From Desulfobacterales bacterium (GTDB taxonomy: Bacteria > Desulfobacterota > Desulfobacteria > Desulfobacterales > C00003060): a DNA stretch of 54,977 nucleotides. The notes beneath the pieces were generated by a model that was given only the letters and a program-made list of their open reading frames with translations, was not told the origin of the DNA and ran no database searches. The stretch spans positions 1-54,977 of the forward strand of contig JAGMBW010000071.1 of assembly GCA_023129535.1 (NCBI GenBank), read 5' to 3'. How positions within the stretch are numbered: position 1 is the first letter of the stretch; each line of letters starts with the position of its first letter. Both the position numbers and the translations under genes were made by a program. Below, in pieces: positions 7,539 to 26,260 of this stretch.

Positions 7539-7602
7539 GAAATAGCTTATCACTATTAGTGGCTATTGGCTAATAGCTAAATGTAAAACCGAAGGTTTTT
7601 TT

Positions 7603-7681
7603 GGGGGCGTAGTTCAGTTTGGTTTAGAACGCCGGCCTGTCACGCCGGAGGTCGCGAGTTCGAGTCTCGTCGTCCCCGCCA
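7603..7681 (+). tRNA. tRNA-Asp (anticodon GTC), CCA encoded
   Basis: GGGGGCG acceptor, anticodon loop CTGTCAC, T-loop GTTCGAGTC. The integrase gene lies immediately 3', a classic integration target. Confidence 0.9.
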
Positions 7682-7690
7682 GGAATATCA

Positions 7691-7722
7691 AAGGGTTAGC
7701 TTTCATGGCTAACCCTTTTTCG
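7691..7722. terminator. Rho-independent style hairpin after tRNA-Asp, overlapping the integrase stop
   Basis: AAGGGTTAGC-TTTCATG-GCTAACCCTT followed by a T-run. Confidence 0.6.
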
Positions 7723-8806
7723 TTTCACTGCGGGAAAAACTGCGGGAATTTTTCGGGAGATTTTCGAGCTTGTCGAGTTCGAGAAGCTTCATCACGTCTC
7801 GTGTGTCTGTGTAATTCCCCTCCACATAAATCTCTGTCGTGGTCTGCCTTCTGTGCCGGAGGACTTGCTGTACTTTTTTCAGGCCGACCTTCTGTAGGTC
7901 GTTCAAATACTTCGCCACTGTGTGCCTGATGTCATGGTAACCGAAAGACTCAACATCCGCCAGTTTGCAAAGGGTCTTTAAAGTCTTACGCCTTTCACCG
8001 AAAGGTTTGCCATAGAATTTGCTCTTCGGGTTCATGTGGCAAAATACGTACGGGCTGGTGGGGTGGCGGTGCTTCCACTGCCACATCAGGAGCTGGTAGA
8101 GGTCGTCGTTCATCCAGAGTTTTTCGTACCTCATTTCCCCTGACTTATTCTTCTTTGTACCGAGCCTGGCCCACCTTTCTTCGAAATTGATATCATCGGC
8201 CCAGGTCCATCTCAGGATCTCACCCTTTCTCGCACCGGTATGCCAGTACGACCCCATTAATACCCTGTCATGGCCCTGGGCCACAAGCATGACCTTAAGG
8301 ATGTCTTGGATGGGAATCAATCTCCGTGCTTTCTTAGAGTGAGGTTTCTTTTTGATTGGAGCTGTGGGGTCATACATTATGCTGTACATGTCCTGGACCC
8401 AACCATAAAACGCCCTGAGATTCTTCCTGTCCTTGTTGGCTGCGTTGTTGCTCTGGGTCTCGGCACGATTGTTGATGAAATGCAGAATCGTGCGGGGTTC
8501 AATAGAAGTCACATCAACATCTCCGACATGTTCGTAAAACCGTTCCAAACAGTATCGCTTTTCGTCGAAGGTTTTCTTGTCATAGTTGATTTTGGAGTCA
8601 CCAAGATATTCCTGGGAAAGCCTCCAGAAAAATAGATCGTTACCTTGGGAAGAAGATTTCTGAGGTTTCTCGCTCAGACGGGCTTTTTCTTGCTTTATCC
8701 ACTGTCTTGCCTCGTCTTTGTATTGGAAGAACCCTCTGGCCATTATTCTCTCGCCCTTCAGCTCGAACTCGGCCCGCCAGCCCCATTTGCTCTTCCAGAT
8801 AGCCAT
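7709..8806 (-). CDS. Tyrosine-type site-specific integrase
   Basis: C-terminal catalytic motifs HTGARKGE, HDIRHTVAKYL and LRHRRQTTTEIY (the R-H-R-Y set). The ATG at 8806 is preceded by GAGGAGGG. N-terminus is MAIWKSKWGWRAEF. Confidence 0.9.
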   Translation of the reverse strand: MAIWKSKWGWRAEFELKGERIMARGFFQYKDEARQWIKQEKARLSEKPQKSSSQGNDLFFWRLSQEYLGDSKINYDKKTFDEKRYCLERFYEHVGDVDVTSIEPRTILHFINNRAETQSNNAANKDRKNLRAFYGWVQDMYSIMYDPTAPIKKKPHSKKARRLIPIQDILKVMLVAQGHDRVLMGSYWHTGARKGEILRWTWADDINFEERWARLGTKKNKSGEMRYEKLWMNDDLYQLLMWQWKHRHPTSPYVFCHMNPKSKFYGKPFGERRKTLKTLCKLADVESFGYHDIRHTVAKYLNDLQKVGLKKVQQVLRHRRQTTTEIYVEGNYTDTRDVMKLLELDKLENLPKNSRSFSRSETKKG

Positions 8807-9023
8807 ACAAAGCCCTCCTCGTAGTACGCCAGGATCCACCTACTTTTGCGGCAGGCAATATCTTGCGGCGCATTAACGCCCTGACTGTTTCAGGAGCAAG
8901 GGATAATTCGTTTGCCACCTGTTCCGGCGTAAGTATAGCGTTGTCTTGTTTCCCAGTCAATTTCAAAGGAAACCTACCAAATTGGGATAAACATTTTCTC
9001 TTTTCAGTGTACCAGTAGAGCAA
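8640..9023 (-). CDS. Excisionase-family (MerR/Xis-like) helix-turn-helix protein; start uncertain
   Basis: ILTPEQVANELSLAPETVRALMRRKILPAAKVGGSWR is a typical Xis HTH. The ATG called at 9023 lies inside a -24/-12 promoter-like element, so a downstream TTG (about 8966 or 8960) is more likely. The 3' tail overlaps int by about 166 nt in another frame. Confidence 0.55.
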   Translation of the reverse strand: MLYWYTEKRKCLSQFGRFPLKLTGKQDNAILTPEQVANELSLAPETVRALMRRKILPAAKVGGSWRTTRRALYGYLEEQMGLAGRVRAEGRENNGQRVLPIQRRGKTVDKARKSPSERETSEIFFPR

Positions 9024-9034
9024 GTGCTGTGCCG
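9019..9034 (-). promoter_or_regulatory. Sigma-54 type -24/-12 element (CGGCAC-N5-TTGCT) upstream of xis
   Basis: The minus strand reads CGGCACAGCACTTGCT with correct GG-N10-GC spacing. It sits in the same position as the better element at 25832-25847, downstream of the 12-mer block. Confidence 0.4.
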
Positions 9035-9120
9035 TATTTGGTAAGCTGTAGAAATCACAGGGATTGTATGCAGAGAAGGCAAGTTGGAGGGGGCATAAGG
9101 CGTGAAATTTTCGAGGATCA

Positions 9121-9390
9121 GGTTCCGATAAAATCGTAACCAGTGAAATTTATTAACAATTAAGAGGTTCCGATAAAACAAGACGAGGTTCCGATAAAAT
9201 GCCGTGAAATTTCCAAGGGTTACACGCCATAAGGGAAGGCTAAGTTGTTGTAAGGTTCCGATAAACCTGTAAGCTATGGAATTTTCAGGAAATTGATAGG
9301 TTCCGATAAAATTGGGATAGGTTCCGATAAAATTGGGTGTAGTTTCAGTGGGTTACAATAAATAGAGGAATCATGAGGTTCCGATAAAAT
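9121..9390 (+). repeat. Left block of 7 direct copies of the 12-mer GGTTCCGATAAA (putative enhancer or operator array)
   Basis: Copies start at 9121, 9166, 9187, 9254, 9299, 9320 and 9377, with spacings of 45/21/67/45/21/57. The block is collinear with 25921-26190 at an offset of exactly 16800 nt for at least six copies. Confidence 0.85.
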
Positions 9391-10589
9391 GGATTAAGCA
9401 TCATATATGCTTTAATTGCCTGCGCTTAGCCATATCAGACCATCCACGTGGTTGTTCAAAGCTACGAGGGCGTTATAGCAGAGGTTGGCCGTGGTACCTG
9501 ATTTATACAAGGATGGATAAAGAGGATAGAACTGTCCTGGATGTTGGATGATTTCAGCCCCGATCCTCACACTACTTTTGATTAGGGCGACGTCGTGGGC
9601 GGTGGCGGGCCGCTTACGCGTGCTGGGAGATGCCAGGTTGTAAAAGGTATAGATTGGGTGGCGGAGCGGGGAGTGAGCTAGGCCGGAACGGCCAGCGACA
9701 AGCCCGTGCGGTGGGTGGGGCACGGGTTGCCAGGATACCAGCAAAGAGATGGCCGGCAAGAATCAAGCTTGAAACCGCAGCCTCGGTTTTTGTGTTTATA
9801 GGACGTTTTGGAACCCTCGTGCGAGTGATGAGTTCGCGGGTTCAGTGTGGCGACCTCCATCAGCGAGGATGTTTTGCAAATCCCTTGTCAGTGTTGATTT
9901 TGCGGCGTTGCGACAGTTTCTGTCCGTTAGGACGTTTTGTAACCCCTTTGCCAGTGTTGATTTTGCGGCGTTGTGGCGATCCTTGTCAGTCAGGAGGTAT
10001 TTTGAGTGTCGATTGTAGATTGCGAGGCTGGGTTTCTGGGCAGTGTATCGGGCTGAAGTGGAGCACCGGGTTTACCAGGTGATGCGGAGCGAAAGACCGC
10101 TACTCTGCCCTGGGGGAGGAGGATTTGGGGAGCCCCTGGGGGCAGAGGGGAAGCGTGGAGTGTCAGGGTGCAGCGAAGCAGTTTTTTCGCTGAGGTGCAC
10201 GCTGACTCTTCACGCGGGGTGGCGGGGGATATTCCCCCTGGAGGGGGCAGGGGGTGAATAGATAGGGCGTAGGGTGCGCCGGTGTTTTGTCTCCCCCCTG
10301 ACTTAAAAATTTAGTTGCGAAAGCAGGCGTGTGACGAATGCGGTGAGCGAAGCGAATGAGCCACCTTAGTCTGGCCGTAGCGCGGGTGAGCCAAAGGGAT
10401 GGCGCGCCCTGTGCCCGAAAAAAATCGCCCCAAACGACAAAAATGATGCCACCACTAAAGTGAGGGGCTTTTTTCGGAAAGCACAGGGCGTGACAGACCG
10501 ACGTGAACACGGAGAAGCGGAGGCCAGGTGAAAAAGAGGGGGGTTGTCAGGGGGGAGAAAAAATGCAGCACCCGGAGCCCCTTCCTTTT

Positions 10590-12355
10590 ACATGTTTTAA
10601 GTCCCCTATGAGGGGATTTAGGGGTGGGCAGCGGCGTAAGGTGCGTGAATTGGGGGCGTAGGTGAAATCGTTGTCTCGGTTTCTATGAGTCAACGATTTC
10701 ACCGAAGGCCCTTCCGCTTTGGGTGGGTAGCTTCAAAAACGGCGTCACGATGTGGGGATGGTGGTAAATACTGGCTGGGTTTGGGTTTATGGGTCAGAGA
10801 CAGTATTGATGACCATCCCCATATCGTGGCCACCACCAGGCTCTTTTAAGTCCCCTATGAGGGGATTTAGGGGTGGGTAGGGGTCAAAAAATTGCGTCAC
10901 CACGTGGGGAGGGCCGTAAATACTGCCTGGCTTTGGGGTCTCTGGATATCAGGCAGTCTTTATGGCAGGGTCCCCACGTAGTGACATCGACTTAAAAAAT
11001 GGTGTCACCCGGTAGCGCTGAGATGTGTGAGGCGGGCATAGCGTTGTTTCTCCGTTGCCTTATTGGCGGGAATAGCCTCGCTATTGCACTGCCGAGTGAC
11101 ATCCTCCAGTAAGGGCGGGTGGGCGGGTTAATCTCTTCGTTGCCACTCGACATGTTATGAAGTGCGGATGTGGTGTTCGATTTCGGAGGGGGTGCTGGGC
11201 GTCTTGAAAGTTGTGTGGGTTAGCCTGTGGTTTTTTGTGGCCACGTATCTGCTTAGCTTCGTGCCGATCCCGGTGGCTACGACGTGCGCCGCCTGGGATG
11301 GATGGGTTGAATTGGGGGCGTAGGTGAAATCGTTGTCTCGGTTTCTATGAGTCAACGATTTGACCGAAGGCCCTTCCGCTTTAGGTGAGTAAATTCAAAA
11401 CTGGCGCCACGACGTGGGGACGGCGATAAATGCTGTCGGGCTTTGGTTTTATGGGTAGGAGACAGCATTGATGGCCGTCCCTACGTCGTGACTACCACCA
11501 GGTGTTTTAAGTCCCCTATGAGGGGATTCAGGGGTGGAGAGCGGCGTAAGGCGCTTAAACTGGGGGCCGTAGGTGAAATCGTTGTCTCGGTGGCCATGAG
11601 ACAACGATTTCACCTACGGCCCTTCCGCTTTGGGTCGGGTAGATTGAAAAACGGCGTTACGACATGGGAACGGCGGTGAATACTGTCGGGCTTTGGTTTT
11701 ATGGGTAACAGGCAGTATTCATGGCCGTTCCCATGTAGGGACCACCGCTTGAATGTTTTAAGTCCCCTATGAGGGGATTCAGGGATGGGTAGCGGCGTAA
11801 GGCGCATGAATTGGGGGCCGTAGGTGAAATCGTTGTCTCCGTTTCTAGGAGACATCGTTTTCACCGAAGGCCCTTCCGGTTTGGGCGGTCTGGCGTGAGG
11901 TGGGGGTAAAGACGTTGTTTCGGGGCTGGAGGATCGGTTGAAGTGTTTGCCAGAGCAAACACTTTATCCGATGCGGAGTTTGAGGCTTCAAGAATCAAAA
12001 ATTGGGGGCCGTAGGTCAAGTGGTTGACTCAGGGAGACAACGACTTGACCGAAGGTCCTTCCGCTTATTGGGGGCCGTAGGTGAAATCGTTGTCTCCGTT
12101 TCTAGGAGACATCGTTTTCACCGAAGGCCCCTGGGGTTTGGGTAGGTAGATTCAAAAAAGGCGTCACGATGTGGGGACGGTGATAAATACTGTCGGGCTT
12201 TGGTTTTATGGGTTACAGGCAGTATTGATGGCCGTCCCCACATCGTGACTACCAGCAGGCTCTTTTAAGTCCCCTATGAGGGGATTTAGGGGTGGGTAGC
12301 GGCGTAAGGCGCGTGAGTTGGGGGCCGTAGGTGAAATCGTTGTCTCCGTTTCTAG
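10590..12355. repeat. Mosaic tandem array of three hairpin modules (A, B, C), left part
   Basis: Module A (TTTTAAGTCCCCTATGAGGGGATT) is at about 10595, 10844, 11505, 11756 and 12263. Module B (GTAGGTGAAATCGTTGTCTC...GAGACAACGATTTCACC) is at about 10650, 11311, 11560, 11811, 12001, 12068 and 12319. Module C (90-nt hairpin) is at about 10741, 10895, 11402, 11652 and 12159. Confidence 0.85.
11155..11235 (-). pseudogene. Relic of the 3' end of a PAPS-reductase-like gene (paralogue of 15495-16202)
   Basis: 11155-11230 is near-identical at nucleotide level to 15495-15570. It encodes ...THTTFKTPSTPSEIEHHIRTS* versus ...THKTFKTRSTVSEIEHRIRTS*, and no upstream body is present. Confidence 0.5.
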
Positions 12356-14677
12356 CCTTAGTTTCGCACTTTGAGTCCGGAAGAATTCACGACTTTTCTT
12401 GTTTATTCAATAAAATTAAGATGTTATAGAGAGAGGCTTTTCTTGGGTAATTTTTAACTATCTGATATTATTAATAAAACTTTTTGCAAAACAAATGTAG
12501 TACCTGTACAGCCTCCCCCGATATTTTATTTTTGTCTTGACAATGCCCCGTTTTTCGGTATCCTGAAAAAAATTTTGGAGAGCGAAAATGTTTTTCAGGG
12601 AAAATCGATCAAAAAATTCAAAACTACCTGTATCGCAATTAGTTGAAAATATTCGAACCGCCAGAGGCCCGAGGGTTCGTATCGTGGTATCTCTGGGTAC
12701 CAGGTTCAAAATTCCTAAGTCAGACCGGAGTGCGGTTGCACGTATTGTGAAAGAGCGGCTTTCCGGTCGGCTGTCATTATTTTCATACGATGCGCAGTTG
12801 GTTAGGTATGCGGACTATATCGTAAAAAAGATACAGACTGAGGGGAAATGGGATTCGGCGCGGCAGCGAGTGGCTGAATTCAAGGAGTCCGATCGGCAAA
12901 CAGCGGAGATTTTTGTTGAGGATGTAGAACATGGATATACCAGGGAATTGGGACCGATACTGATTGGCGATACATTTTGGAGCCGTTTGAATTTTCCTTC
13001 AATATTGCGTGAATATGGGTTTCGGGAGAGCGAGATAAAGACAGCAGAGATTTCGGTATTGAATCGTTTGATTTCCCAGGACAGTGAGAATGGGATTATT
13101 TCCTGGTTAGGGACGGTAGCCGTTGATGAATTGCTTGGTATTGATTTCATGCAATTTGGCCATGACCGATTTTATCGCATATCGGATAAGTTGTTGAAGC
13201 ATCAATCGTATATAGAAGAAGAGTTGTATCAACGGGAAAAAGACCTGTTCAGTCTTGAGGATTGCATATTCTTATATGATTTGACGAATACCTATTTCGA
13301 GGGTGTATGCGCAAGGAATCCGAAGGCGAAATATAGCAAGAATCAAAAGGAGAAGCGAAGTGACTGTCCGCAGGTAGTGGTAGCGCTTGTATTGGATGGT
13401 GATGGTTTTATTCGACGTCATCCTGTCTTCGAGGGAAAGATGTCGGATTCAAAGTCGTTGGGCCATATTGTGGGGGAATTGGCAAGTGAGTTTTCAGATA
13501 AAGCGATGCCCACGATCGTTTTTGACAGAGGGATGGTGACGGAAGAAAACATCGAACTTTTAAAGAGCTATGAGAATTTGAAGTACATTGTGATGTGCCG
13601 CAGTAACGAAGAAGAGCAGTTTATAGGCACATTCCAAAGGGAAGAATTCCATATTGTAGAAGGCAGAGACCCAAAAAAGAAAGTGGAAGTAATGATAAAA
13701 CCGGCAGCCGACATCGTTTATTTGTTGTGCAAAAGTGAAGGACGCAAAAACAAAGAGCAAGGGATGCGCAATAATCGTGAAAAAAAGCTGGAAAAGGAAC
13801 TGACAAATTTGCAGAATCAGATTCAAAAGGGGAGAGAAAATAATCCTGTCAAAATCGAACAAAGAATCGGTCGTATTAAAGAGCGGTTCGGCAAGGTGTC
13901 GCAATATTATGAGATCATGTATACCCATCGGGAATTTTCATATACACTTCCTGAAGATGTAAAAATTTCCAAACGAGTTTCAAATTCTCTTGCGAAGCTG
14001 AAAGAAAAAGCAAACGGCAATACAATCACCTTTCCGGCACTTGAAAAAAAACTGGCCGTTATGCAAGAGAAATATCCTTCTGATTTTGATAAAATCAAGA
14101 TGCACTTAATTGCACCAGCGTTGAGCTGGGAACCCATCGAGGAGATTCGTGAAAAAGAGGCGGGATTGGATGGAAATTACCTTTTGAAGACAAATCGGAC
14201 AGACTTAAATGCCGACGAAATATGGAAGTTGTATGTGATGCTAACTCGGATAGAAAACGCATTTCGGGATTTAAAGTCGTATCTTGGCTTACGCCCGAAC
14301 CCACATCACAGAGAAGACCGTGTCGATGGGCACATATTTATTTCAATCCTTGCGTATCATCTGCTTCATTCGATCGAATATATGTTACGAGTACAGGGTG
14401 TACATTCCCGCTGGGCAACAATAAAACGCGTGGTGAGCACACATGATTATTCGACCGTTCAGCTGCCGACAACCAGCGGTCCGGTAATCAATATCAGGAA
14501 GCCCAGTATGCCCGAAGGCATCCATATGGACATTTACGATAAGCTGGATGTAGACTACAAACATTTGCCGGTGAGACGCAACCTCGCCTGATTGAAAAAA
14601 ACTAAGGCGAGTCTGTAGTACCTGTATCTGTAAGGCATTGGCAATATTGTTCTTTTTATCAAAATGCGAAACCAAGG
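12356..14677 (+). mobile_element. Insertion sequence (IS1634/IS4-type, about 2.3 kb) inserted in the apex of a module-B hairpin
   Basis: Terminal inverted repeats are CCTTAGTTTCGCAC... and ...GCGAAACCAAGG. The flanks reconstitute the uninterrupted hairpin loop GTTTCTAGGAGAC. The target duplication is CTAG, or TA if the IS ends are taken as GCCTT...AAGGC. Confidence 0.8.
12588..14591 (+). CDS. DDE transposase, IS1634/IS4 family
   Basis: 667-aa ORF filling the IS. N-terminus MFFRENRSKNSKLPVSQLVENIRT... and a C-terminal LKSYLGLRPNPHHREDRVDGHIFISILAY block, typical of IS4/IS1634 DDE-K transposases. Confidence 0.8.
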   Translation: MFFRENRSKNSKLPVSQLVENIRTARGPRVRIVVSLGTRFKIPKSDRSAVARIVKERLSGRLSLFSYDAQLVRYADYIVKKIQTEGKWDSARQRVAEFKESDRQTAEIFVEDVEHGYTRELGPILIGDTFWSRLNFPSILREYGFRESEIKTAEISVLNRLISQDSENGIISWLGTVAVDELLGIDFMQFGHDRFYRISDKLLKHQSYIEEELYQREKDLFSLEDCIFLYDLTNTYFEGVCARNPKAKYSKNQKEKRSDCPQVVVALVLDGDGFIRRHPVFEGKMSDSKSLGHIVGELASEFSDKAMPTIVFDRGMVTEENIELLKSYENLKYIVMCRSNEEEQFIGTFQREEFHIVEGRDPKKKVEVMIKPAADIVYLLCKSEGRKNKEQGMRNNREKKLEKELTNLQNQIQKGRENNPVKIEQRIGRIKERFGKVSQYYEIMYTHREFSYTLPEDVKISKRVSNSLAKLKEKANGNTITFPALEKKLAVMQEKYPSDFDKIKMHLIAPALSWEPIEEIREKEAGLDGNYLLKTNRTDLNADEIWKLYVMLTRIENAFRDLKSYLGLRPNPHHREDRVDGHIFISILAYHLLHSIEYMLRVQGVHSRWATIKRVVSTHDYSTVQLPTTSGPVINIRKPSMPEGIHMDIYDKLDVDYKHLPVRRNLA

Positions 14678-14678
14678 C

Positions 14679-15210
14679 TAGGAGACATCGTTTTCACCGA
14701 AGGCCTCTGGGGTTTTGTGTGGCGAGGTATCTGCTTGGCGCCGTGGCGATCCCCGTGGCCAGGAGTCGGTCCGGCGGAGTCGGTCCGGCTGGGATGGATC
14801 TGGTTTTTTAGCGCGCTGTTCCTGGACAGTGCGCTTTGGGTGGGCAGCGGCGTAAGGCGCGTGAACTGGGGGCCGTAGGTGAAATCGTTGTCTCCGTTTC
14901 TAGGAGATATCGTTTTCACCGAAGGCCCTTCCTTTTTGGGTGGGTAGTTTCAAAAAAGGCGTCACGATGTGGGGATGGTGGTAAATACTGGCTGGGTTTG
15001 GGTTTATGGGTCAGAGACAGTATTGATGACCATCCCCATATCGTGGCCACCACCAGGCTCTTTTAAGTCCCCTATGAGGGGATTTAGGGGTGGGTAGGGG
15101 TCAAAAAAATTGCGTCACCGCGTGGGGAGGGCCATAAATACTGCCTGGCTTTGGGGTCTCTGGGTAACAGGCCGTATTTATGGCGGGGCCCCCATGTAGT
15201 GACATCCTCC
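14679..15210. repeat. Mosaic hairpin array, right part (continues after the IS)
   Basis: Contains the second half of the interrupted module B, module B at about 14866, module C at about 14955 and 15112, and module A at about 15061. Confidence 0.8.
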
Positions 15211-15494
15211 AGTAAGGGCGGGTGGGTGGGTTAATCTCTTCGTTGCGAGTTTCGTTAGGGATGTAAACTCTTTGCCGGAAATGGATAGGAGTTGCCAGGA
15301 TGCGTGGAGGCATAGGACGGGTATGTGTTTTGGGTGGATCGATGCTGTAAACTTTTGGAATTCAGAGCGTGAAATATTCATCAAAATATTCATGTGAGCT
15401 GTGGTGAAACACTTTGACAAGGACACCTGGTGAAAGGGTTTGGCAACGGCAGTGCCAGGCGCGCGGGTTAATGTCTTCGTTGCCACTGGAGATG

Positions 15495-16202
15495 TTATGA
15501 AGTGCGGATGCGGTGTTCGATTTCGGAGACGGTGCTCCGCGTCTTGAAAGTTTTGTGGGTTAGCCTGTCCATCTTTTTCATTTTTCGCCAGAGATGTGGG
15601 AAGAAGTAAAAAAGCGTTTCTAATGCAGAAAATTTTTGCAGTGGGCAACAAAAACAACCGGTGCGGGAAAATAGCTGATATAGGCCATTCCAGTCAAATC
15701 CCTGTTCATAACAGTATCTGAGGCTCTTATTTTTTGTTATTTTCCAGTCAATAAGGGGAAAAGCAACCGGTACAGGATAAACATTTTTTGCGTTGGCTCT
15801 GTGGCACTCATCGGAAGTAATGCCAGAATATAAATGGCAGGGTGGTAGAGAGCGGAGGTATTTGACCAACGGCTCCTTTTTGAGGACCTTGACACACCAA
15901 CGACATTGCCAGGCGGGCCAGCCATAGCCTTTCTGGCCCTTTCTTTTGCCTTTGGTCTTGACGTGTTCTGCAAACCAATACTGCCATGGCTTCTCACCCT
16001 TCAGGACGGTAATCTTTCTGCCGATGTAGGTTTGAACATGTTTGATGTGTCTGTAAACTTCAGGGAACTCCTGGCCTGTATCACAGAAAACAATATCGTC
16101 AATGCGGATGTTGTTCTCGATCATCATGAGCAGCATGCATGTGCTGTCTTTCCCGCCTGAGAACAATACTATGTGTTTAGGGTAAGCCTGGTTTTGTGTC
16201 AT
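15495..16202 (-). CDS. Phosphoadenosine phosphosulfate (PAPS) reductase family / PP-loop ATPase, phage-type
   Basis: IVLFSGGKDSTCML PP-loop motif. The ATG at 16202 begins MTQNQAYPKH. The upstream ORF extension is rejected. Confidence 0.75.
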   Translation of the reverse strand: MTQNQAYPKHIVLFSGGKDSTCMLLMMIENNIRIDDIVFCDTGQEFPEVYRHIKHVQTYIGRKITVLKGEKPWQYWFAEHVKTKGKRKGQKGYGWPAWQCRWCVKVLKKEPLVKYLRSLPPCHLYSGITSDECHRANAKNVYPVPVAFPLIDWKITKNKSLRYCYEQGFDWNGLYQLFSRTGCFCCPLQKFSALETLFYFFPHLWRKMKKMDRLTHKTFKTRSTVSEIEHRIRTS

Positions 16203-16471
16203 GGTTGAATAAATAGGATAGAAGGCGATAAATAGAACAAAAAAGGCACAAAAAAACATGCAGGATCGGCTCGAGATAGTGCCATATTATAAAAAAATAG
16301 CCAGCTAAGGGTAAAATATCATATTATACCCTGCACTTAAGGGTAAAATATATTGAGCATCTATATTATAACCCCCCTATAGTCTCCCCTTAGAGTCAAA
16401 GTACTGGACGTCTGGCCAGACTGCCGGGTCTGTTTTTGGACACGAAGTGAAGCTTGCGCTAAAGGCGGAAA

Positions 16472-17020
16472 TCACTTTGCGGGCTTTCTGTGTTTATATC
16501 TTTTTGGATGCCAGTAGGTCTTGCCGGAAGGGAGCTTGTGGTAATGGTAGGCAGGATCGTCCTTGTAGCGGTGGTCGATATGGTCGGCGGCTTTTTGCCA
16601 GAGCAATTCAAACTTAGCGTAAAAAGGCTCGATAAGTTCTTCCTGAGTGGTGAAGATCATTGCTTCGTGGTTTCTGTATTCTGCGTCTGCTGTGATATTG
16701 TAGCTTCCTGTAACCAGGATTGTTTTGTCCACAATGAGAAACTTGTGATGCATAAGCCCCTTTACGACTTTGACGATCTTGATGCCTATTCCTCGTTCAA
16801 TCATCCATTCGTCCAGAGAGTAGTATTTGTCAGCCTGATCCCTGTCCAGGACCAGCCTGACGCTTACTTCCCTTTCGACTGCTTTAGCCAGCGCCTTAGC
16901 AACGTATTTTAAGGATAAGAGATAGAGAGCAGCCACGATCTCCTGGTTGGCTGCCTTGATGATTTCCACAAGCTCTCTGCTGATGTAACCCCTTGGAGAG
17001 AAAAGGACTTTAGTCTTCAT
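16472..17020 (-). CDS. Phospholipase D-like (single HKD) nuclease, Nuc family
   Basis: HHKFLIVDKTILVTGSYNIT is the HxK(x)4D...GSxN motif. Confidence 0.8.
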   Translation of the reverse strand: MKTKVLFSPRGYISRELVEIIKAANQEIVAALYLLSLKYVAKALAKAVEREVSVRLVLDRDQADKYYSLDEWMIERGIGIKIVKVVKGLMHHKFLIVDKTILVTGSYNITADAEYRNHEAMIFTTQEELIEPFYAKFELLWQKAADHIDHRYKDDPAYHYHKLPSGKTYWHPKRYKHRKPAK

Positions 17021-17100
17021 TTTTCCTGATTAGGCGCCCACTTTGAGTGGTTGTGTCATTTGGATTTCCTTCCTGCCTGCCGGCAGGCAGGGAAGTCAAG

Positions 17101-17132
17101 AAAAGCGGGGTTTACACACAAGCCCCGCTTTT
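17101..17132. terminator. Bidirectional hairpin terminator downstream of the HU gene
   Basis: AAAAGCGGGG-TTTACACACAAG-CCCCGCTTTT. A perfect GC-rich palindrome (CCTGCCTGCCGGCAGGCAGG) precedes it at about 17067-17096. Confidence 0.6.
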
Positions 17133-17160
17133 CCGGGTCTCCGGCTCTGGCTTTGGAGGG

Positions 17161-17433
17161 TTATTGGCCACCCCTTTTTAGGGAACGCCCTGGTTTGAAA
17201 TGGGGGTATTTGCGTGCGGGGATGTTGATTGTCTTGCCGCTCTTGGGATTTCGTGCTTTTCGAGCCTTTCTATTTTTTACGTAGAATTTCCCAAAACCTC
17301 TGAGAACAATGGCATCCCCGTTGACCAGTAGATTGGTTACGTTGGACATAACACTATCCAGGGCCTTGGCTGCTAAGGGCCTCGTAATATCCAGGTCTTC
17401 AGCTATGTTCGCGACAAGTTCCGTTTTGGTCAT
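17161..17433 (-). CDS. HU/IHF family DNA-binding protein
   Basis: MTKTELVANIAEDL...GDAIVLRGFGKFYVKNRKARKARNPKSGKTINIPARKYPHFKPG. Confidence 0.9.
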   Translation of the reverse strand: MTKTELVANIAEDLDITRPLAAKALDSVMSNVTNLLVNGDAIVLRGFGKFYVKNRKARKARNPKSGKTINIPARKYPHFKPGRSLKRGGQ

Positions 17434-17450
17434 TTTGCCTCACACCCCCC

Positions 17451-17798
17451 TTACTTTTTTCTGCTAGTCTTTTTCTTTTTGGGCTTTGCCTTTGGTTTTA
17501 CCTTGGGCTTGGCCAACACGTTTTTGGCAACAGCCTCTTTCAGTGGCTGTCCCGGCTTGAAGCTTACCCTCACGCCTGGTGCGAAAGTTACTTTCTTGCC
17601 GGTCAGAGGGTTAATGCCTTTCCTCTCAGGTACGGGGTTCACCTTGAAGGATCCAAAGCCAGGAAGCTTCAATGCCCTTTTCCTTGCCAGGATCGCCTGG
17701 ATCACATCGAGCAGTATCGCCAGATATGCTCCAGCATTGACCTTGGTCACCTTAGCCTTTGTGGCGAATTTGGTTATGACTTCTTCTCTATCTGTCAT
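17451..17798 (-). CDS. HU-like DNA-binding protein with a lysine-rich C-terminal tail
   Basis: LPGFGSFKVNPVPERKGINPLTGKKVTFAPGVRVSFKPG followed by KPKVKPKAKPKKKKTSRKK. Confidence 0.8.
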   Translation of the reverse strand: MTDREEVITKFATKAKVTKVNAGAYLAILLDVIQAILARKRALKLPGFGSFKVNPVPERKGINPLTGKKVTFAPGVRVSFKPGQPLKEAVAKNVLAKPKVKPKAKPKKKKTSRKK

Positions 17799-17959
17799 CG
17801 TGTGTTCACCTCCTTTCTCCTCTCTTCTGGCTCAGGTATGATGTAGCGGGACTTCATGATGATCAAAAAGGCAGCATAAGCGAGATTTGCCTGCGCTTCA
17901 GACGTGCCGGGCCTCTGGAGTATCTCGATTATGGCCTGAGTGATTTCTACTTTTGTCAT
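17795..17959 (-). CDS. Small hypothetical protein
   Basis: The ATG at 17959 begins MTKVEITQAIIEIL. The stop overlaps the HU-like start. No recognisable family. Confidence 0.35.
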   Translation of the reverse strand: MTKVEITQAIIEILQRPGTSEAQANLAYAAFLIIMKSRYIIPEPEERRKEVNTR

Positions 17960-18054
17960 GATGTTTTCCTTCCCGCCCGCCTCGCCTGAGCGAGCCTCAG
18001 GCTCGCGATGGCGGGCAGGCACAGGGGGCATCTGCGGCCCCCTGTGGTTATTGG

Positions 18055-22743: not shown

Positions 22744-23766
22744 TCATTGGGACCTCTCGTTGGTTCTGTAGTCCGGTCCTTCAAAGTGAAGAACTCTGGC
22801 CATCCCGGCAAGGCGGGAGCTGATCCTGCCGTCTATCTTCTCTGCAATCTCGTCCAGGGAGAGGTTCGAGGTTACAACAGTGGGCTTGAGGTGACTGTCC
22901 CGCTGGTAGATGATGTAGTCCAGGGTCTGCCTGGCCCACTCGGTGGTCTTTTCCACACCTAAATCATCCAGGATAAGGAAGTCGCAGGACGAATACTTGC
23001 GGCAATGGAATTCCTCGCTGTCAGTGGCTCCGGAATGAAATGCCCTTCTGATTTCAAGCAGGAGTCCGGGCACTGAAGTGAACAGCAGATCGTTGTCCTG
23101 CAGCAGTAGCTCCCTGGCAATCGCAGCGGCCAGGTGGGTCTTGCCTGTACCGTAGCTGCCATAAAGAAAGAGGCTGTTTGCAGGCCTGGCAGCCTCCGGC
23201 CCGTTGGGGCCTACGCGCCGGAGGGCATATTCTTTACAGATCTTCGCATTTTTTTGGTTGAACCTGGTTGTCTTGAAGTTCTCAAAAGAACATCCCAGGT
23301 ATTTGGGAGGAACACCTATCCTCTTGAGGTGGGACCCTATGTTGTTTCCGATCTCTTCTAACTTTCTCTTCCTCTCCTCGATTTCCCGTTGTTCCTCGGA
23401 GCAGCGGCTGCACATTCCGTTCTTGGGCTCAAAGTGAGGCCAGAGCCACCTGCTGGATAAATTGCTCCATTCGGGAGAAGATAGCGTGCCACATCTCTTG
23501 CATTTCAGATCCTTTGGCCTCTGATTCGGCAGAGGCGGCCTTTTCCCTGCCTTGCATCGCCTGGCCTGTCCATCAATCGGCGAAGCCTGGCGGGCACTGG
23601 CGGGCAGGTCTTTAGCGCAAGCCTCACTTCGTGCCCTGCTAATAGTCTTTGCCGGGGACGGGGCCACTGTCGATAGGGTAGTCGCTTGGGAGGTCGAAGC
23701 CCTTCCTGCCTTGTTTCTTTTTTCCAAAAGGCGTTGATTTGCGAGCAGGATATCCGTCTCGTTCAT
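22744..23766 (-). CDS. DnaC/IstB-like AAA+ helicase loader with an N-terminal Cys-rich extension; start uncertain
   Basis: Walker A GSYGTGKTHLA and Walker B FLILDDLG, followed by VVTSNLSLDEI. The called start overlaps the upstream gene by 128 nt. Confidence 0.8.
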   Translation of the reverse strand: MNETDILLANQRLLEKRNKAGRASTSQATTLSTVAPSPAKTISRARSEACAKDLPASARQASPIDGQARRCKAGKRPPLPNQRPKDLKCKRCGTLSSPEWSNLSSRWLWPHFEPKNGMCSRCSEEQREIEERKRKLEEIGNNIGSHLKRIGVPPKYLGCSFENFKTTRFNQKNAKICKEYALRRVGPNGPEAARPANSLFLYGSYGTGKTHLAAAIARELLLQDNDLLFTSVPGLLLEIRRAFHSGATDSEEFHCRKYSSCDFLILDDLGVEKTTEWARQTLDYIIYQRDSHLKPTVVTSNLSLDEIAEKIDGRISSRLAGMARVLHFEGPDYRTNERSQ

Positions 23767-24799
23767 ATTGCTCTCCTTTCTTTGTCCTGGCTTGCCTTAT
23801 CTCAAGGGCCTTTCTTAGCCAGTTGGTAACTGAGGCCTTGAAATTGGATTTGGGAAACTTATTGGTTTTTTTCTTCTCTTTTTTCCTGTGCTCAGTCTCC
23901 AGCCAGTCGTGCCAGTTGTGCAGTTCGTCTCTTAGGTCAAGCTGGCTGTAAGTGGAGTTTCCGTCTATCCGCTTCTCAAACCACTTTACATCTTCAGGCC
24001 TTACATCAAACTCCGAATACGTCTTGATGACCTCTAAGAATTGAAGTGCGGCAAGAGAAGGTGGAGGTGCGGTATTGCTAGCTAATGGGTACCCATCTAG
24101 AGAATATTCTTCTTCGTTCTTATGCACTTCTTCTAGATTATTAGTAGTATTGTTTTTAATACTGTCTTTAACTGTTTTTAAGCTATGTTTTTCCTTAGTT
24201 ATTTCAGCTTGTTGAGATACCGCGAGGTTGCCGTTTTGGCAAGTTGAACTTGCCGTTTTGGCAACCTCCTGGTTGCCGTTTTGGCAACCTGGAGGCAGGT
24301 GGTTTTGACCTGGAGGCGTGCTTCGGCATACTTTACTTGCCGTTTTGGCTACCCGTTGTCTGTTTTTCTCAATAGTCTCGGGTTCTTTCTGACTCCTGCC
24401 TCGAAGGTTTTTACTTGCCGTTTTGGCAACCTGATCGAAAAAATCTTCATGTCTACTTGCCGTTTTGGCAACCTTCCAGTTTTTGTAATGCTTATTAAAC
24501 CAATATTTATGGGGGTTTGAGGGGTCTTGCTTGATTACGTGCTTCGAGTGAAGGGAACTTGCCGTTTTGGCTACGTGAGAAAGATGAATGTTGGCAAAGA
24601 AAGCAATCTCTGATTTTGTGAGCAAGGCGAACTTTTTCCCACAGCCATAAGAGAAGCGGAGAATCACATCTATTACTTTTCGTTCTCTCTTAGTGAAGTC
24701 AGAACACATTATGGCCTCCCAAAGCTCGTTAGAGATCTGTATGTAGCCGTTTTCTAGCTGGGGTGTGCCTCGTTTTCGGTTTTTAAGTGTATCTTTCAC
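23639..24799 (-). CDS. Phage lambda O-like replication initiator (Phage_rep_O type N-domain)
   Basis: NGYIQISNELWEAI...FTKRERKVIDVILRFSYGCGKKFALLTKSEIAFFANI matches the rep_O winged-helix pattern. The gene contains the iteron array. Confidence 0.75.
   Translation of the reverse strand: MKDTLKNRKRGTPQLENGYIQISNELWEAIMCSDFTKRERKVIDVILRFSYGCGKKFALLTKSEIAFFANIHLSHVAKTASSLHSKHVIKQDPSNPHKYWFNKHYKNWKVAKTASRHEDFFDQVAKTASKNLRGRSQKEPETIEKNRQRVAKTASKVCRSTPPGQNHLPPGCQNGNQEVAKTASSTCQNGNLAVSQQAEITKEKHSLKTVKDSIKNNTTNNLEEVHKNEEEYSLDGYPLASNTAPPPSLAALQFLEVIKTYSEFDVRPEDVKWFEKRIDGNSTYSQLDLRDELHNWHDWLETEHRKKEKKKTNKFPKSNFKASVTNWLRKALEIRQARTKKGEQYERDGYPARKSTPFGKKKQGRKGFDLPSDYPIDSGPVPGKDY
24228..24575. repeat. Seven iterons (ACTTGCCGTTTTGGCAAC; core palindrome TTGCC-N5-GGCAA) inside the initiator gene; putative replication origin
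   Basis: Copies are at about 24228, 24250, 24273, 24337, 24415, 24457 and 24559. In frame they encode repeated VAKTAS peptides. Confidence 0.75.
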
Positions 24800-24843
24800 T
24801 TATTCGTCCTGTCTGCCGACAGGCAGGTTCTTAAACCACGTGG

Positions 24844-25548
24844 TTATGCCGGCCATTGTTGTACAAACTCGCCTTCCCAATAAGGCCGGAGGTTATGTTT
24901 CATGAAAATAGGCAAGTTAAACTTTGTTGCCTGGTGAAGTATGTTCCGGATCCAGTTCTTTTCAGGTGCATGTTGCCCGGCGCCGGGGCCGGTCATCGCG
25001 CCGACAATGACCCAATTGATCCACCACAGAGCGTTGTAGTTGGTGTAAACAAGATCCAGCAGGGGCTCGTAGCTGAGGAATGTAATATTTGGGAGGTCCG
25101 CTAATGCCGTGGCATTCCAGTAGCTGGCTTCGAAGCTATCTGCGGTTGCTCCCAGCCAGCAATTTTGTGGAAAGTGGAAGTGGTGGTATGTGATCGGGTT
25201 CTTGGTTAAAAACAAGAATGTATGCTGAGGGCATTTCCTGACGATGCTTAAAACGGATAGAATCCAATTGGGGGGAACCCAGTCTCCAAACAGATCACCC
25301 ATTGAACATACAAAGATCCTGGTGGGTTTTTTCCATTGGGAAGGGAGGGCAAGGCGTTGAGGATGAAACGTGGGGATAAAGGGATCATCAGGGGGGTACC
25401 CGTAGCGTCCACGGAGTCTGTTTGCCATGCGATGCGCATAGCAATAAAAACACCTGTTCGGTCTTTCGGGTGACCCTTCTGGTCCCCAGCAACCGGTCAC
25501 AGGATTCCAGGTCCTGGTTGTCCAACCTATGCTTTCTTTAATACCCAT
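24844..25548 (-). CDS. Phage Gp37/Gp68 family protein (DUF5131)
   Basis: IGWTTRTWNPVTGCWGP...CFYCYA N-terminal signature. Confidence 0.8.
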   Translation of the reverse strand: MGIKESIGWTTRTWNPVTGCWGPEGSPERPNRCFYCYAHRMANRLRGRYGYPPDDPFIPTFHPQRLALPSQWKKPTRIFVCSMGDLFGDWVPPNWILSVLSIVRKCPQHTFLFLTKNPITYHHFHFPQNCWLGATADSFEASYWNATALADLPNITFLSYEPLLDLVYTNYNALWWINWVIVGAMTGPGAGQHAPEKNWIRNILHQATKFNLPIFMKHNLRPYWEGEFVQQWPA

Positions 25549-25599: not shown

Positions 25600-25791
25600 T
25601 CATCCCCGGTTTTCTTCATTGATGGTTTTCTCTTTCAGCCAGTCGAGCACCTCTTTTTGATCAAACCTGACCTTGCCGCGTGGGAGTCGGAGATAAGGAA
25701 TAAGGCCGAGGTGACAATATTTTGCGACAGTCCTTGGGCTAAGCCTCAGGAAGTTGGCCAATTCCCTGGTAGTGAGAAGAATCCTTTGCAT
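25600..25791 (-). CDS. Excisionase-family HTH DNA-binding protein
   Basis: LLTTRELANFLRLSPRTVAKYCHLGLIPYLRLPRGKVRF. AAGGAG Shine-Dalgarno site upstream. Confidence 0.8.
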   Translation of the reverse strand: MQRILLTTRELANFLRLSPRTVAKYCHLGLIPYLRLPRGKVRFDQKEVLDWLKEKTINEENRG

Positions 25792-25831: not shown

Positions 25832-25847
25832 AGCAAGTGGTGTGCCA
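25832..25847 (-). promoter_or_regulatory. Sigma-54 promoter (TGGCAC-N5-TTGCT) driving the HTH/Gp37/rep operon
   Basis: The minus strand reads TGGCACACCACTTGCT, an exact consensus with exact spacing, about 40 nt upstream of the ATG at 25791. Confidence 0.65.
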
Positions 25848-25890: not shown

Positions 25891-26260
25891 AAGTTTATCG
25901 GAACCAATTTTGGGGGATCAGGTTCCGATAAAATTGTAAGTGCTGGAATTTATTGGAAATGAGTTGGTTCCGATAAAATTATACGTGGTTCCGATAAAAT
26001 GCTGTGAAGTTTCCAAAGGTTACAGACCATAAGGGAGGGCTAAGTTGCTATAAGGTTCCGATAAACCTGTAAGCTATGGAATTTTCAGGAAATTGATAGG
26101 TTCCGATAAAATGAGGATAGGTTCCGATAAAATTCCGTGCAGTTCCAATGGGTTACGAAACATAGAAAATCACGAGGTTCCGATAAAGTTCCGATAAAAG
26201 TGAAAGCTATGGAACATTAAGAGAATTTGGCGGGTTCCGATAAGGTTGCGATAAGACGTA
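25891..26260 (+). repeat. Right block of the GGTTCCGATAAA 12-mer: 9 direct copies, 1 degenerate, 1 inverted (putative enhancer/UAS)
   Basis: Direct copies start at 25921, 25966, 25987, 26054, 26099, 26120, 26176, 26188 and 26233. There is a degenerate copy at 26244 and an inverted copy at 25895-25905. The block overlaps the 3' end of the activator gene. Confidence 0.85.

What the first reader, a model, noticed from the sequence alone, without database searches (positions are those of the whole stretch)
9019..9390. Second copy of the 12-mer array and -24/-12 element exactly 16.8 kb away, upstream of xis-int
9121-9345 is collinear with 25921-26145, with the same copy order and the same offset of 16800 nt for six sites (my by-eye estimate is 85-90 percent identity).

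It is followed, in the same relative position, by CGGCACAGCACTTGCT on the minus strand, just upstream of the Xis-like and integrase genes.

Excision/integration and replication functions therefore appear to be wired to the same enhancer type. Alternatively, the two blocks are long direct repeats that could recombine and delete or amplify the 16.8-kb segment between them.

The promoter-like element overlaps the ATG called for xis at 9023, which argues for a later start.
Basis: seen in the sequence. Interest (0 to 1): 0.6.

Follow-up and report, generated by a model that had tools for sequence, protein, structure and literature searches.

The report
Twin sigma-54 enhancers on a mobile element
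A mobile DNA island in an uncultured sulfate-reducer relative carries two near-identical arrays of a 12-base protein-binding site, each in front of a sigma-54 promoter, so that one island-encoded activator probably switches on its excision genes and its replication genes together; I found no description of this way of controlling a mobile element in the papers I could search.

Summary
9106-9366 matches 25906-26166 at 86% identity with no gaps and an offset of 16800. The block holds six identical GGTTCCGATAAA sites. Each copy lies upstream of one of the only two consensus -24/-12 elements in the window.

Two corrections apply. The promoters are offset by 16813, not 16800. The codon at 9023 is TTG, the TTG of the -12 box, not ATG.

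The arrays are most likely enhancers (UAS) for the island's own sensor-less sigma-54 activator (26207-27586; GAFTGA; C-terminal winged helix). P_L drives xis-int. P_R drives HTH_17-DUF5131-RepO-DnaC.

The main new evidence is comparative:
- Nine regulatory regions were compared: three from the window's own lineage and six from five more distant relatives.
- The TTTATCGGAA core is the only motif they all share apart from the promoter.
- In the six regions without array expansion, the distal doublet sits at -267/-256 (±3).
- Sites and promoter are both present or both absent among six related integrase loci.
- One relative carries both regions about 44 kb apart, with only 60% identity between them.

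The dual wiring is therefore ancestral. The 86% identity in this window reflects recent copying or gene conversion between the two arrays. No 16.8-kb deletion or circle junction was seen. Binding and sigma-54 dependence are untested.

The parts
9106..9390 (-). Left enhancer array. Seven direct GGTTCCGATAAA sites (TTTATCGGAACC in the direction of transcription) at about -124, -169, -190, -257, -302, -323 and -380 relative to the inferred start site. It is built of two 133-nt units plus one site.
9019..9034 (-). P_L, a sigma-54-type -24/-12 element CGGCACAGCACTTGCT. The inferred transcription start is near 9008.
   Evidence: The leading C is shared by the xis-int promoters of L050 (CGGCATACCCCTTGCT) and L059 (CGGCACACGTATTGCT).
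8640..8966 (-). xis-like gene of the HTH_17 / excisionase family. The likely start is TTG 8966 or 8960. The 3' tail overlaps int by about 165 nt in another frame.
   Evidence: Pfam HTH_17 9.6e-10; TIGR01764 'excise' at its cut-off; sequence
7709..8806 (-). Tyrosine integrase. The likely start is ATG 8806, preceded by GAGGAGGG.
   Evidence: Phage_integrase 5.8e-16; sequence; 251 relatives, many from Desulfobacterales
7603..7681 (+). tRNA-Asp next to int, the presumed attL. An IHF-consensus match lies at 7686-7698.
9412..9495 (-). Remnant 3' end of the gene that precedes the left array in relatives. Only the last 28 codons are conserved (82% to L050).
25894..26255 (-). Right enhancer array. Nine direct sites, one inverted site (25894-25905) and a degenerate doublet. 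The distal sites lie inside the last codons of the activator gene.
25832..25847 (-). P_R, a sigma-54-type -24/-12 element TGGCACACCACTTGCT. The inferred start is near 25821. AAGGAG lies 7 nt before ATG 25791.
25600..25791 (-). HTH_17 (BldC/Xis-like) gene, the first gene of the replication operon.
   Evidence: HTH_17 1.4e-12; BldC family 8e-9, below its cut-off, and 'excise' 34.2 bits
26207..27586 (-). Sigma-54 enhancer-binding protein. It has an AAA+ domain with GAFTGA, no sensor domain, a P/A/R-rich linker and a C-terminal winged helix.
   Evidence: Sigma54_activat 1.8e-62; sequence; closest solved structures ZraR and NtrC1; DNA-binding domain profile matches MarR-type AdcR at 6e-5
22744..25548 (-). 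DUF5131, lambda-O-like initiator (23639-24799) and DnaC-like loader (22744-23766), all downstream of P_R. The initiator gene carries its own iterons, ACTTGCCGTTTTGGCAACC, at 24219-24575.
17161..17798 (-). Two HU/IHF-like genes in the P_R-side gene string. They are candidate DNA-bending helpers; this is inference only.

Best explanation
The two blocks are paired upstream activating sequences (enhancers) of an integrative, replicative island inserted next to tRNA-Asp.

Proposed mechanism:
1. The island encodes a sensor-less sigma-54 activator (26207-27586).
2. The activator's C-terminal winged-helix domains are proposed to bind the direct TTTATCGGAAC sites.
3. Assembled on the arrays, the AAA+ ring loops to sigma-54 RNA polymerase waiting at P_L (9019-9034) and P_R (25832-25847).
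4. ATP hydrolysis opens both promoters.
5. P_L gives xis-int. P_R gives an HTH_17 regulator, DUF5131, a lambda-O-like initiator, a DnaC-like loader and the downstream genes.

Sigma-54 promoters are silent without their activator. One protein would therefore couple excision with replication and keep both off otherwise.

What is shown:
- the anatomy of both regions;
- the domain content of the activator;
- conservation of sites, promoter and spacing in relatives;
- co-occurrence of sites with the promoter.

What is inferred:
- who binds the sites;
- dependence on sigma-54;
- looping;
- what controls the activator itself.

Second claim: the two-region layout is ancestral in this element family. 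In this island the array part has recently been copied or gene-converted between the two positions, probably right to left. That explains 86% identity with sharp borders, next to promoters and genes that are old paralogues.
For: Activator:
- Sigma54_activat 1.8e-62, AAA_lid_14, GAFTGA, Walker A GERGTGKE, no N-terminal domain.
- The C-terminal 80 residues are a MarR/DeoR-like winged helix. Its few relatives are mostly the C-termini of other sigma-54 activators.

Geometry:
- The only two consensus -24/-12 elements in 55 kb lie 30-42 nt before HTH_17 start codons. Each has an array 76-89 nt further upstream, in the same orientation.

Relatives with the right-hand module:
- L006, L043-L046 and L058 have a homologous activator (AAA+ 60-72% identical, DNA-binding domain 39-83%).
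- A TTTATCGGAAC doublet abuts the activator stop codon.
- A TGGCA(C/T)-N5-TTGCT promoter and an HTH_17 gene follow.
- Replication genes follow in L044 and L058.

Relatives with the left-hand module:
- L050/L051/L054 (int 78%) and L059 (int 81%) have doublets plus CGGCA(C/T)-N5-TTGCT before xis-int.
- L052, L053 and L060 (int 70-78%, Xis 64-67% where measured) have neither sites nor promoter.

Both regions in one relative:
- The relative followed through L050, L054, L056, L057 and L058 has both regions about 44 kb apart.
- The same 324-aa activator is recorded on a contig in the size class of the 211-kb contig that holds the xis-int region.

Unbiased k-mer count over nine regions:
- Only words of TTTATCGGAAC are present in all nine.
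- The distal doublet lies at -267/-256 (±3) in all six unexpanded regions, although the regions are only 50-60% identical overall.

Gene conversion:
- Left vs right is 86% in the block and 76% over the aligned core, against 60% in the relative.
- XisL vs HTH17_R is 27% identical.
- The 133-nt internal duplication is shared by the left and right arrays but absent from the right array of L006.
- The left promoter keeps the left-type leading C.
Against: - No binding, transcript or start-site data exist. No RNA runs hold the locus.
- Classical enhancer-binding-protein sites are inverted repeats for Fis-type dimers at about -80 to -200. Here the sites are direct repeats reaching -380.
- HTH_17 (BldC/Xis-type) proteins, which are known to bind direct repeats head to tail (PMC6428758), are also encoded next to every array. 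Synteny alone therefore cannot assign the binder.
- What controls the activator is unknown.
- attR was not found, so the island may no longer be mobile.
- L006, L008 and the window are close relatives from one study.
Confidence: 0.7

Rival explanations
1. The direct repeats are bound by the HTH_17 (BldC/Xis-like) proteins encoded just downstream. These would polymerise head to tail and autoregulate or shape the DNA. The activator would then act from another site or from solution.
For: - BldC and Xis bind variable numbers of direct repeats head to tail (PMC6428758).
- The right HTH_17 protein matches the BldC family at 8e-9.
- Doublets are spaced 11 nt, one helical turn.
- An HTH_17 gene follows every array.
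Against: - The two HTH_17 proteins of the window are only 27% identical yet face identical sites.
- Xis orthologues 64-67% identical occur in L052 and L053 with no sites. The sites therefore track the sigma-54 promoter, not Xis.
- BldC sites are degenerate (AATT-N3-4-C/G). These 10-12-mers are identical across elements.
- The activator has a conserved DNA-binding domain (the recognition-helix stretch SxRAxRKHL is invariant in the four aligned sequences).
- No other motif is shared by the nine regions.
Confidence: 0.15
2. The arrays are iterons of a replication origin, or centromere-like partition sites, duplicated within the element.
For: - They are arrays of 7-10 direct repeats with spacings of 11, 21 and 45 nt.
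- The right array lies within 1.1 kb of the initiator gene.
Against: - The lambda-O-like initiator gene carries its own, different iterons inside the gene, as in lambda (ACTTGCCGTTTTGGCAACC, 24219-24575).
- No partition gene was found in the island.
- The sites keep a fixed distance and orientation to a -24/-12 promoter in nine regions. These include xis-int regions about 44 kb from the replication genes.
Confidence: 0.04
3. The left copy is a functionless product of duplication. Its only consequence is as a substrate for homologous recombination that deletes or amplifies the 16.8-kb segment.
For: - The block has sharp borders and a 62-nt identical run, long enough for RecA-type recombination.
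- The arrays vary in unit number between close relatives.
Against: - A sites-plus-sigma-54-promoter region precedes xis-int in two other elements whose arrays are not copies of their right-hand arrays.
- The left promoter is of the conserved left type.
- No contig joins 9xxx to 26xxx in runs X1 and X2. This is weak, because contigs drop rare forms.
Confidence: 0.04

Closest known systems
PspF of E. coli, and the four N-terminal-domain-less enhancer-binding proteins of Desulfovibrio vulgaris (PMC4641369)
   Same: - AAA+ sigma-54 activator with GAFTGA and no sensor domain.
- Encoded beside its target promoter.
- Activity must be set in trans or by expression level.
   Different: - The DNA-binding domain is a C-terminal winged helix, not a Fis-type HTH.
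- There are 7-10 direct-repeat sites reaching -380, not two dyad sites.
- The targets are a mobile element's xis-int and replication genes.
- No PspA-like partner was identified.
DVU0151-type enhancer-binding proteins of Desulfovibrionales, predicted to have a C-terminal winged helix (Kazakov et al. 2015, PMC4641369)
   Same: A sigma-54 activator whose C-terminal DNA-binding domain is a winged helix rather than Fis-type, found in sulfate reducers.
   Different: - DVU0151 has a long N-terminal region and GAFSEA.
- It is divergently transcribed from a transport operon.
- No homology to it was tested here.
- It has no link to mobile DNA.
Element-encoded master activators that switch on xis/int together with other operons, such as SetCD of SXT/R391 elements (recalled from my own knowledge; not checked here)
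   Same: The logic is the same: one activator encoded by the element acts at several promoters, including the excision genes.
   Different: - Those are sigma-70 activators of the FlhDC type without remote enhancers.
- Here the promoters are sigma-54 type with ATP-dependent opening and near-identical enhancer arrays.
BldC / lambda Xis head-to-tail binding to direct repeats (PMC6428758)
   Same: Direct repeats, some one helical turn apart, lie next to genes of the same HTH_17 fold family.
   Different: - These sites are long and invariant.
- They keep a fixed distance to a -24/-12 promoter.
- They are absent where Xis orthologues lack that promoter.
Lambda ori iterons inside gene O
   Same: The island has this feature too, but at 24219-24575 inside its O-like gene.
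   Different: The 12-mer arrays are a separate repeat family with a different sequence, in intergenic DNA.

Membership tests
Sigma-54-dependent promoter | GG at -24 and GC at -12, ten bases apart, within TGGCAC-N5-TTGCW | tested here: met
   - 9019-9034 CGGCACAGCACTTGCT and 25832-25847 TGGCACACCACTTGCT.
- 2 found against 0.04 expected.
- Conserved in 7 related regions.
Sigma-54-dependent promoter | The host encodes RpoN, and transcription depends on it | not tested
- No RNA runs hold the locus.
- An earlier unchecked note of this scan calls the host Desulfobacterales. That order is known for many enhancer-binding proteins (own knowledge; PMC4641369 covers Desulfovibrio).
Bacterial enhancer-binding protein (bEBP) | AAA+ sigma-54 interaction domain with Walker A/B and the GAFTGA loop | tested here: met
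   - PF00158 at 1.8e-62.
- GERGTGKE, FLDEIGD and KGAFTGA are present in the sequence.
- ZraR 1ojl matches at 3.4e-71.
Bacterial enhancer-binding protein (bEBP) | C-terminal Fis-type HTH (HTH_8) DNA-binding domain | tested here: not met
   - No HTH_8 hit.
- Weak AbiEi_4 winged-helix hit.
- The domain profile matches MarR-type AdcR at 6e-5.
- A relative, P0013, matches HTH_DeoR at 6.9e-15.
Enhancer (UAS) of a bEBP | Specific sites upstream of the -24/-12 element, near the activator gene or its targets, conserved with the activator | tested here: met
   - Sites from -111 to -380.
- The same core is present in all nine regions and is the only shared motif.
- The distal doublet is fixed at -267/-256 (±3).
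- Sites are present or absent together with the promoter.
Enhancer (UAS) of a bEBP | Dyad-symmetric sites for dimeric DNA-binding domains; binding by the activator | tested here: not met
   - All but one site per region are direct repeats.
- Binding itself cannot be tested with these tools.
Replication-origin iterons | Repeats bound by the element's initiator, at or within the origin | tested here: not met
   - A different repeat family lies inside the O-like gene.
- The 12-mers also occur before xis-int, far from the replication genes.
Xis / integrase arm-type sites | Direct repeats within about 250 bp of the att core | tested here: not met
   - The left array is 1.4-1.7 kb from the tRNA-Asp end, with int and xis between.
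- The right array is 18 kb away.
Lambda-type integrative element | Tyrosine integrase plus excisionase beside a tRNA gene, with attL/attR direct repeats | tested here: inconclusive
   - int, xis and tRNA-Asp are present.
- No attR repeat of 11 nt or more was found in the window.

The most novel reading that the evidence does not exclude
A family of integrative, replicative islands in Desulfobacterales-type bacteria may make its stay-or-leave decision with a sigma-54 enhancer switch.
- The single activator is sensor-less and uses winged-helix domains on direct-repeat arrays, an unusual enhancer grammar.
- It opens two otherwise silent promoters, one for excision and one for replication.
- The two enhancers evolve in concert by gene conversion.
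- The arrays expanded together with a long flexible linker in the activator.
Probability: 0.5. Interest if true: 0.7.

Novelty: new variant of a known kind. Interest (0 to 1): 0.6.

Why it matters
Sigma-54 promoters have essentially no basal activity. That suits a mobile element that must stay silent and then commit fully.

Five full-text searches found no paper that describes xis-int or element replication under an element-encoded sigma-54 activator.

The locus offers a compact, testable system: one activator, one 12-base site and two promoters. It also shows an enhancer grammar unlike the textbook one, with direct repeats, a winged-helix domain and a distal doublet at a fixed -267/-256.

The pair of arrays is also a clear case of concerted evolution of regulatory DNA within one element.

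Tried and rejected
No rpoN check and no genome-wide site census were possible.
- **Two-site pattern scan.** The scan of 185,579 representative genomes gave 5 loci. All are local tandem duplications that happen to contain the 12-mer, with no activator or promoter. The IMG/VR scan gave none.
- **Activator in IMG/VR:** no relative found.
- **DUF5131 relatives in IMG/VR:** 34 phage loci, none with this activator or a -24/-12 element. The module is not a general property of DUF5131 phages.
- **IHF consensus** (WATCAANNNNTTR): no match between arrays and promoters.
- **attR search:** the tRNA-Asp 3' end (up to 3 mismatches) and all exact 11-mers from 7600-7760 gave nothing relevant.
- **Rfam:** only the tRNAs.
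- **RNA runs:** none.
- **Logan contigs of X1 and X2** laid on 8800-26400 show no 16.8-kb skip. One apparent 26199->9408 joint is a strain variant of the left copy in which 19 nt are replaced, not a circle junction.
- **The 801-aa AAA+ protein (28440-30845)** was considered as a second activator and rejected because it has no GAFTGA.
Full report
**1. The observation**

The repeat finder reports 9106-9366 and 25906-26166 as a two-copy family of 261 nt, 86% identical with no gaps, spaced 16800 nt.

The 12-mer GGTTCCGATAAA (up to 1 mismatch) occurs 17 times in 55 kb against 0.31 expected. Every copy lies in one of the two blocks. Six sites share the exact offset.

Inside the block the sites are 72/72 identical and the spacers 152/189 (80%). 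Identity falls to 20-40% within 20 nt of either border. The longest identical run is 62 nt, 9251-9312.

Each block is itself two 133-nt units. Unit 1 vs unit 2 is 68-72% identical. Left unit 1 vs right unit 1 is 81%, and left unit 2 vs right unit 2 is 90%.

The pattern YGGCACN5TTGCW occurs twice in the window against 0.04 expected. Both copies are on the minus strand, at 9019-9034 and 25832-25847.

Two details need correction:
- The promoters are offset by 16813, so the left array sits 13 nt further from its promoter. The DNA between array and promoter does not align.
- The "ATG at 9023" is a TTG. It is the TTG of the -12 box, where the mechanical ORF begins.

**2. The surroundings**

To the left lie tig, clpP, clpX and lon, then tRNA-Val and tRNA-Asp (7603-7681). 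All the following genes are on the minus strand.

Left side:
- A tyrosine integrase, 7709-8806, with ATG preceded by GAGGAGGG.
- An HTH_17/excisionase-type gene, 8640-8966. Its likely start is TTG 8966 with GGTAGG 6 nt upstream, or TTG 8960. This gives a leader of about 42 nt from a start site near 9008.

Right side:
- P_R (start site near 25821) precedes a 63-aa HTH_17 gene with AAGGAG-N7-ATG at 25791.
- DUF5131, a lambda-O-like initiator and a DnaC-like loader follow.
- Further downstream are a C11 peptidase, NlpC/P60, two HU/IHF-like proteins, a PLD nuclease and a PAPS-reductase-like protein.

Immediately upstream of the right array a 459-aa gene ends at 26207. It encodes a sigma-54 activator:
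- PF00158 at 1.8e-62, AAA lid, GERGTGKE and KGAFTGA.
- No sensor domain.
- A P/A/R-rich linker.
- A C-terminal winged helix instead of the usual Fis-type HTH.

The initiator gene holds its own iterons, ACTTGCCGTTTTGGCAACC, six to eight copies at 24219-24575. The 12-mers are therefore not the lambda-type origin.

**3. Relatives of the right-hand module**

The window is a cold-seep metagenome scaffold.

A search restricted to the activator's C-terminal part found one relative, P0004. Its 3-kb contig, L006, has the same order: activator, 12-mer array (rearranged, without the second 133-nt unit), TGGCACACCACTTGCT, HTH_17, DUF5131.

A full HMMER search with the 80-residue domain found 14 proteins. 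Several are C-termini of other sigma-54 activators.

An alignment of four such domains (A2) was used to scan JGI metagenomes. It returned four informative contigs, L043-L046. In these:
- The activators are 60-67% identical in the AAA+ part and 39-48% in the DNA-binding domain.
- In each, TTTATCGGAAC-TTTATCGGAAG follows the stop codon.
- About 230 nt further lies TGGCAC/TGGCAT-N5-TTGCT.
- An HTH_17 gene 48-51% identical to the window's follows.
- L044 continues with an HTH_36 initiator and a DnaC-like loader.

On these contigs the core motif occurs nowhere else.

**4. Relatives of the left-hand module**

This part bears directly on the present finding. The integrase has 251 relatives, many from Desulfobacterales. 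I read six loci.

| Locus | int identity | Sites before xis-int | -24/-12 before xis-int |
|---|---|---|---|
| L050/L051/L054 | 78% (Xis 72%) | TTTTATCGGAAATTTATCGGAACC plus an inverted half-site | CGGCATACCCCTTGCT, about 215 nt downstream |
| L059 | 81% | TATCGGAAGTTTAACGGAAT, an inverted site and a TTTAACGGAA doublet | CGGCACACGTATTGCT |
| L052 | 78% | none | none |
| L053 | 70% | none | none |
| L060 | 75% | none | none |

L052 and L053 nevertheless encode Xis orthologues 64-67% identical to the window's. The sites therefore travel with the sigma-54 promoter, not with Xis.

All three xis-int promoters begin CGGCA. All activator-side promoters begin TGGCA. The left promoter is thus an old orthologue, not a recent copy of P_R.

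**5. One relative has both regions**

I followed the L050 element upstream by gene-by-gene look-ups.
- It shares a C11 peptidase (56%), an unnamed 123-aa protein (58%), HU (72%) and PLD with the window.
- It carries a large defence cargo.
- It then carries DnaC-like, HTH_36, UvrD, SMC-like, AAA_24 and PD-(D/E)XK genes.
- At its far end is a 324-aa activator (GSFTGA; C-terminus ...GISDRAIRNHL...). This is followed by TTTAACGGAAC-TTTATCGGAACC, two more sites, TGGCATACCCGTTGCT and an HTH_17 gene.

By chaining the overlapping loci, the two promoters lie about 44 kb apart. That activator and the DnaC-like protein are each recorded, with identical sequence, on a contig in the 0.2-1 Mb size class, which fits the 211-kb contig that holds the xis-int region.

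**6. Shared architecture**

Six regulatory regions align from the distal doublet to the -12 box (A3).

I then ran a k-mer count that assumes no motif over nine regions: window left and right, and L006, L043, L044, L045, L058, L050 and L059.
- The only 8-mers present in all nine are words of TTTATCGGAAC.
- No unrelated 8-mer reaches 7 of 9.

Relative to the inferred start site, the distal doublet begins at:
- -267/-256 in L044 and L058;
- -266/-255 in L043 and L050;
- -265/-254 in L045;
- -264/-253 in L059.

This holds although the regions are only 49-66% identical to one another overall. The window's left copy keeps sites at -257, -190 and -124. L045 has sites at -254, -189 and -124.

A fixed distance and orientation to a promoter is what an enhancer that must loop to the polymerase predicts. 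It is not what iterons or partition sites predict.

**7. Why 86% here**

- In the relative, the xis-int region and the activator-side region are 59.5% identical. That is no more than regions from different elements.
- In the window the same comparison gives 76% over the aligned core and 86% in the block.
- The genes they control are old paralogues, 27% identical over 51 residues.
- The 133-nt duplication and the decayed second member of the distal doublet are shared by the window's two arrays. L006's right array shares the decayed doublet member but lacks the duplication.
- The left array lacks the inverted site after the doublet that L050 and L059 have.

The simplest reading is that the array part, but not the promoter part, was recently copied between the two positions, probably from right to left. 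The blocks therefore have recombined, at least non-reciprocally.

A reciprocal product was not seen. Logan contigs of runs X1 and X2 laid on 8800-26400 show no 16.8-kb skip. The one apparent 26199->9408 joint is a strain variant with 19 replaced bases. Contigs cannot show that rare forms are absent.

**8. Mechanism and rivals**

Best reading (0.7): the activator binds the 12-mers through its winged-helix domains and opens both sigma-54 promoters, coupling excision to replication.

Shown:
- the anatomy;
- the domains;
- the conservation;
- the co-occurrence of sites and promoter.

Inferred:
- the binder;
- dependence on sigma-54;
- looping, perhaps helped by the two HU/IHF-like proteins;
- the signal that turns the activator on.

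A near-consensus TGGCACGGAGCTTGT lies at 28073-28087, 486 nt before the activator's ATG. It has no 12-mers nearby.

Main rival (0.15): the BldC/Xis-like HTH_17 proteins bind the repeats, since that family binds direct repeats head to tail (PMC6428758). Three things argue against it:
- Identical sites face proteins only 27% identical.
- Xis orthologues occur without sites.
- The activator's conserved DNA-binding domain has no other candidate motif.

The iteron or partition reading (0.04) and the pure recombination-substrate reading (0.04) fit poorly, for the reasons in sections 2, 4 and 6.

**9. Comparison with what is known**

- Sensor-less enhancer-binding proteins are known: PspF, and four of the 37 in Desulfovibrio vulgaris.
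- Enhancer-binding proteins with a predicted C-terminal winged helix have been noted: DVU0151 orthologues.
- GSFTGA variants are known.

All three points come from PMC4641369.

A phage AAA+ protein with structural similarity to enhancer-binding proteins, but without GAFTGA or a DNA-binding domain, was described in a 2026 preprint. PHROGs holds an unannotated family, phrog_7998, that matches this activator at 1.6e-46.

Five full-text searches found no paper that puts xis-int or element replication under an element-encoded sigma-54 activator. I class this as a new variant of a known kind.

It is not independent evidence.

Noticed in passing
window 9251-9312 (= 26051-26112): In run X1, probably the source sample, the 62-nt unitig shared by both arrays has depth 81.6. 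The unique flanks have about 25-34. That is about three copies' worth, so a third array may exist in the genome or in a co-occurring strain.
   Followed up: no
window 9019-9186: In runs X2 and X3 a contig (1077 nt in X2, 504 nt in X3) matches 9019-9186 with 6 differences. It then becomes unlike the window exactly at the downstream edge of the -12 box. The array-plus-promoter cassette therefore appears joined to different downstream DNA in another strain.
   Followed up: no
window 28073-28087 (-): A near-consensus -24/-12 element, TGGCACGGAGCTTGT, lies 486 nt upstream of the activator's ATG, before a repeat-rich 101-codon ORF of doubtful reality. No 12-mer sites are nearby. It could place the activator itself under another sigma-54 activator.
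   Followed up: partly
window 15443-15457 (-): A perfect TGGCACTGCCGTTGC lies just downstream of the PAPS-reductase-like gene. It points into the hairpin-repeat region and has no 12-mers upstream.
   Followed up: no
window 10592-12392 and 14809-15568: - Units of about 250 nt are bounded by inverted repeats of about 27 nt (GGGGGCCGTAGGTGAAATCGTTGTCTC / GAGACAACGATTTCACC...).
- Each unit has a long hairpin followed by a T-run, so they look MITE-like.
- The region is split by an IS1634-family transposase gene (12588-14591).
- The first 12 nt of two units equal the 5' end of tRNA-Asp.
   Followed up: partly
window 8640-8806: The xis reading frame runs about 165 nt into the integrase gene in another frame, an unusually long overlap. 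The same stretch aligns in relatives, but that may only reflect the conserved int N-terminus.
   Followed up: no
window 26207-27586 vs L046 1641-2663 and L058 928-1902: The window's activator (459 aa) has a 48-aa basic N-terminal extension and a P/A/R/S-rich linker of about 85 aa. The 324-340-aa relatives lack both. The long linker occurs in the two elements with 9-10 sites (the window and L006); the N-terminal extension is in the window only.
   Followed up: partly
window 26233-26255: The last codons of the activator (…SQPYRNP…) are encoded by two binding-site copies. The gene's 3' end and its own presumed enhancer overlap, and the same holds in L006.
   Followed up: partly
window 9412-9759: Only the last 28 codons of this ORF match the 203-aa gene that precedes the array in L050. 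The DNA from about 9760 to 15500 (tandem 63-nt repeats at 9799-9991, hairpin units, an IS) seems to replace the SSB/ArdC/DprA block of the relative. The island is rearranged or decaying.
   Followed up: partly
window 7686-7698: A perfect IHF consensus, TATCAAAGGGTTA, lies 5 nt after tRNA-Asp, where an att arm would be. No attR repeat was found in the window.
   Followed up: partly
window 28440-30845: An 801-aa protein with an RtcR-like AAA+ core lacks GAFTGA (…LFGIADQSATNVRG…). It is divergently placed from the activator region.
   Followed up: partly
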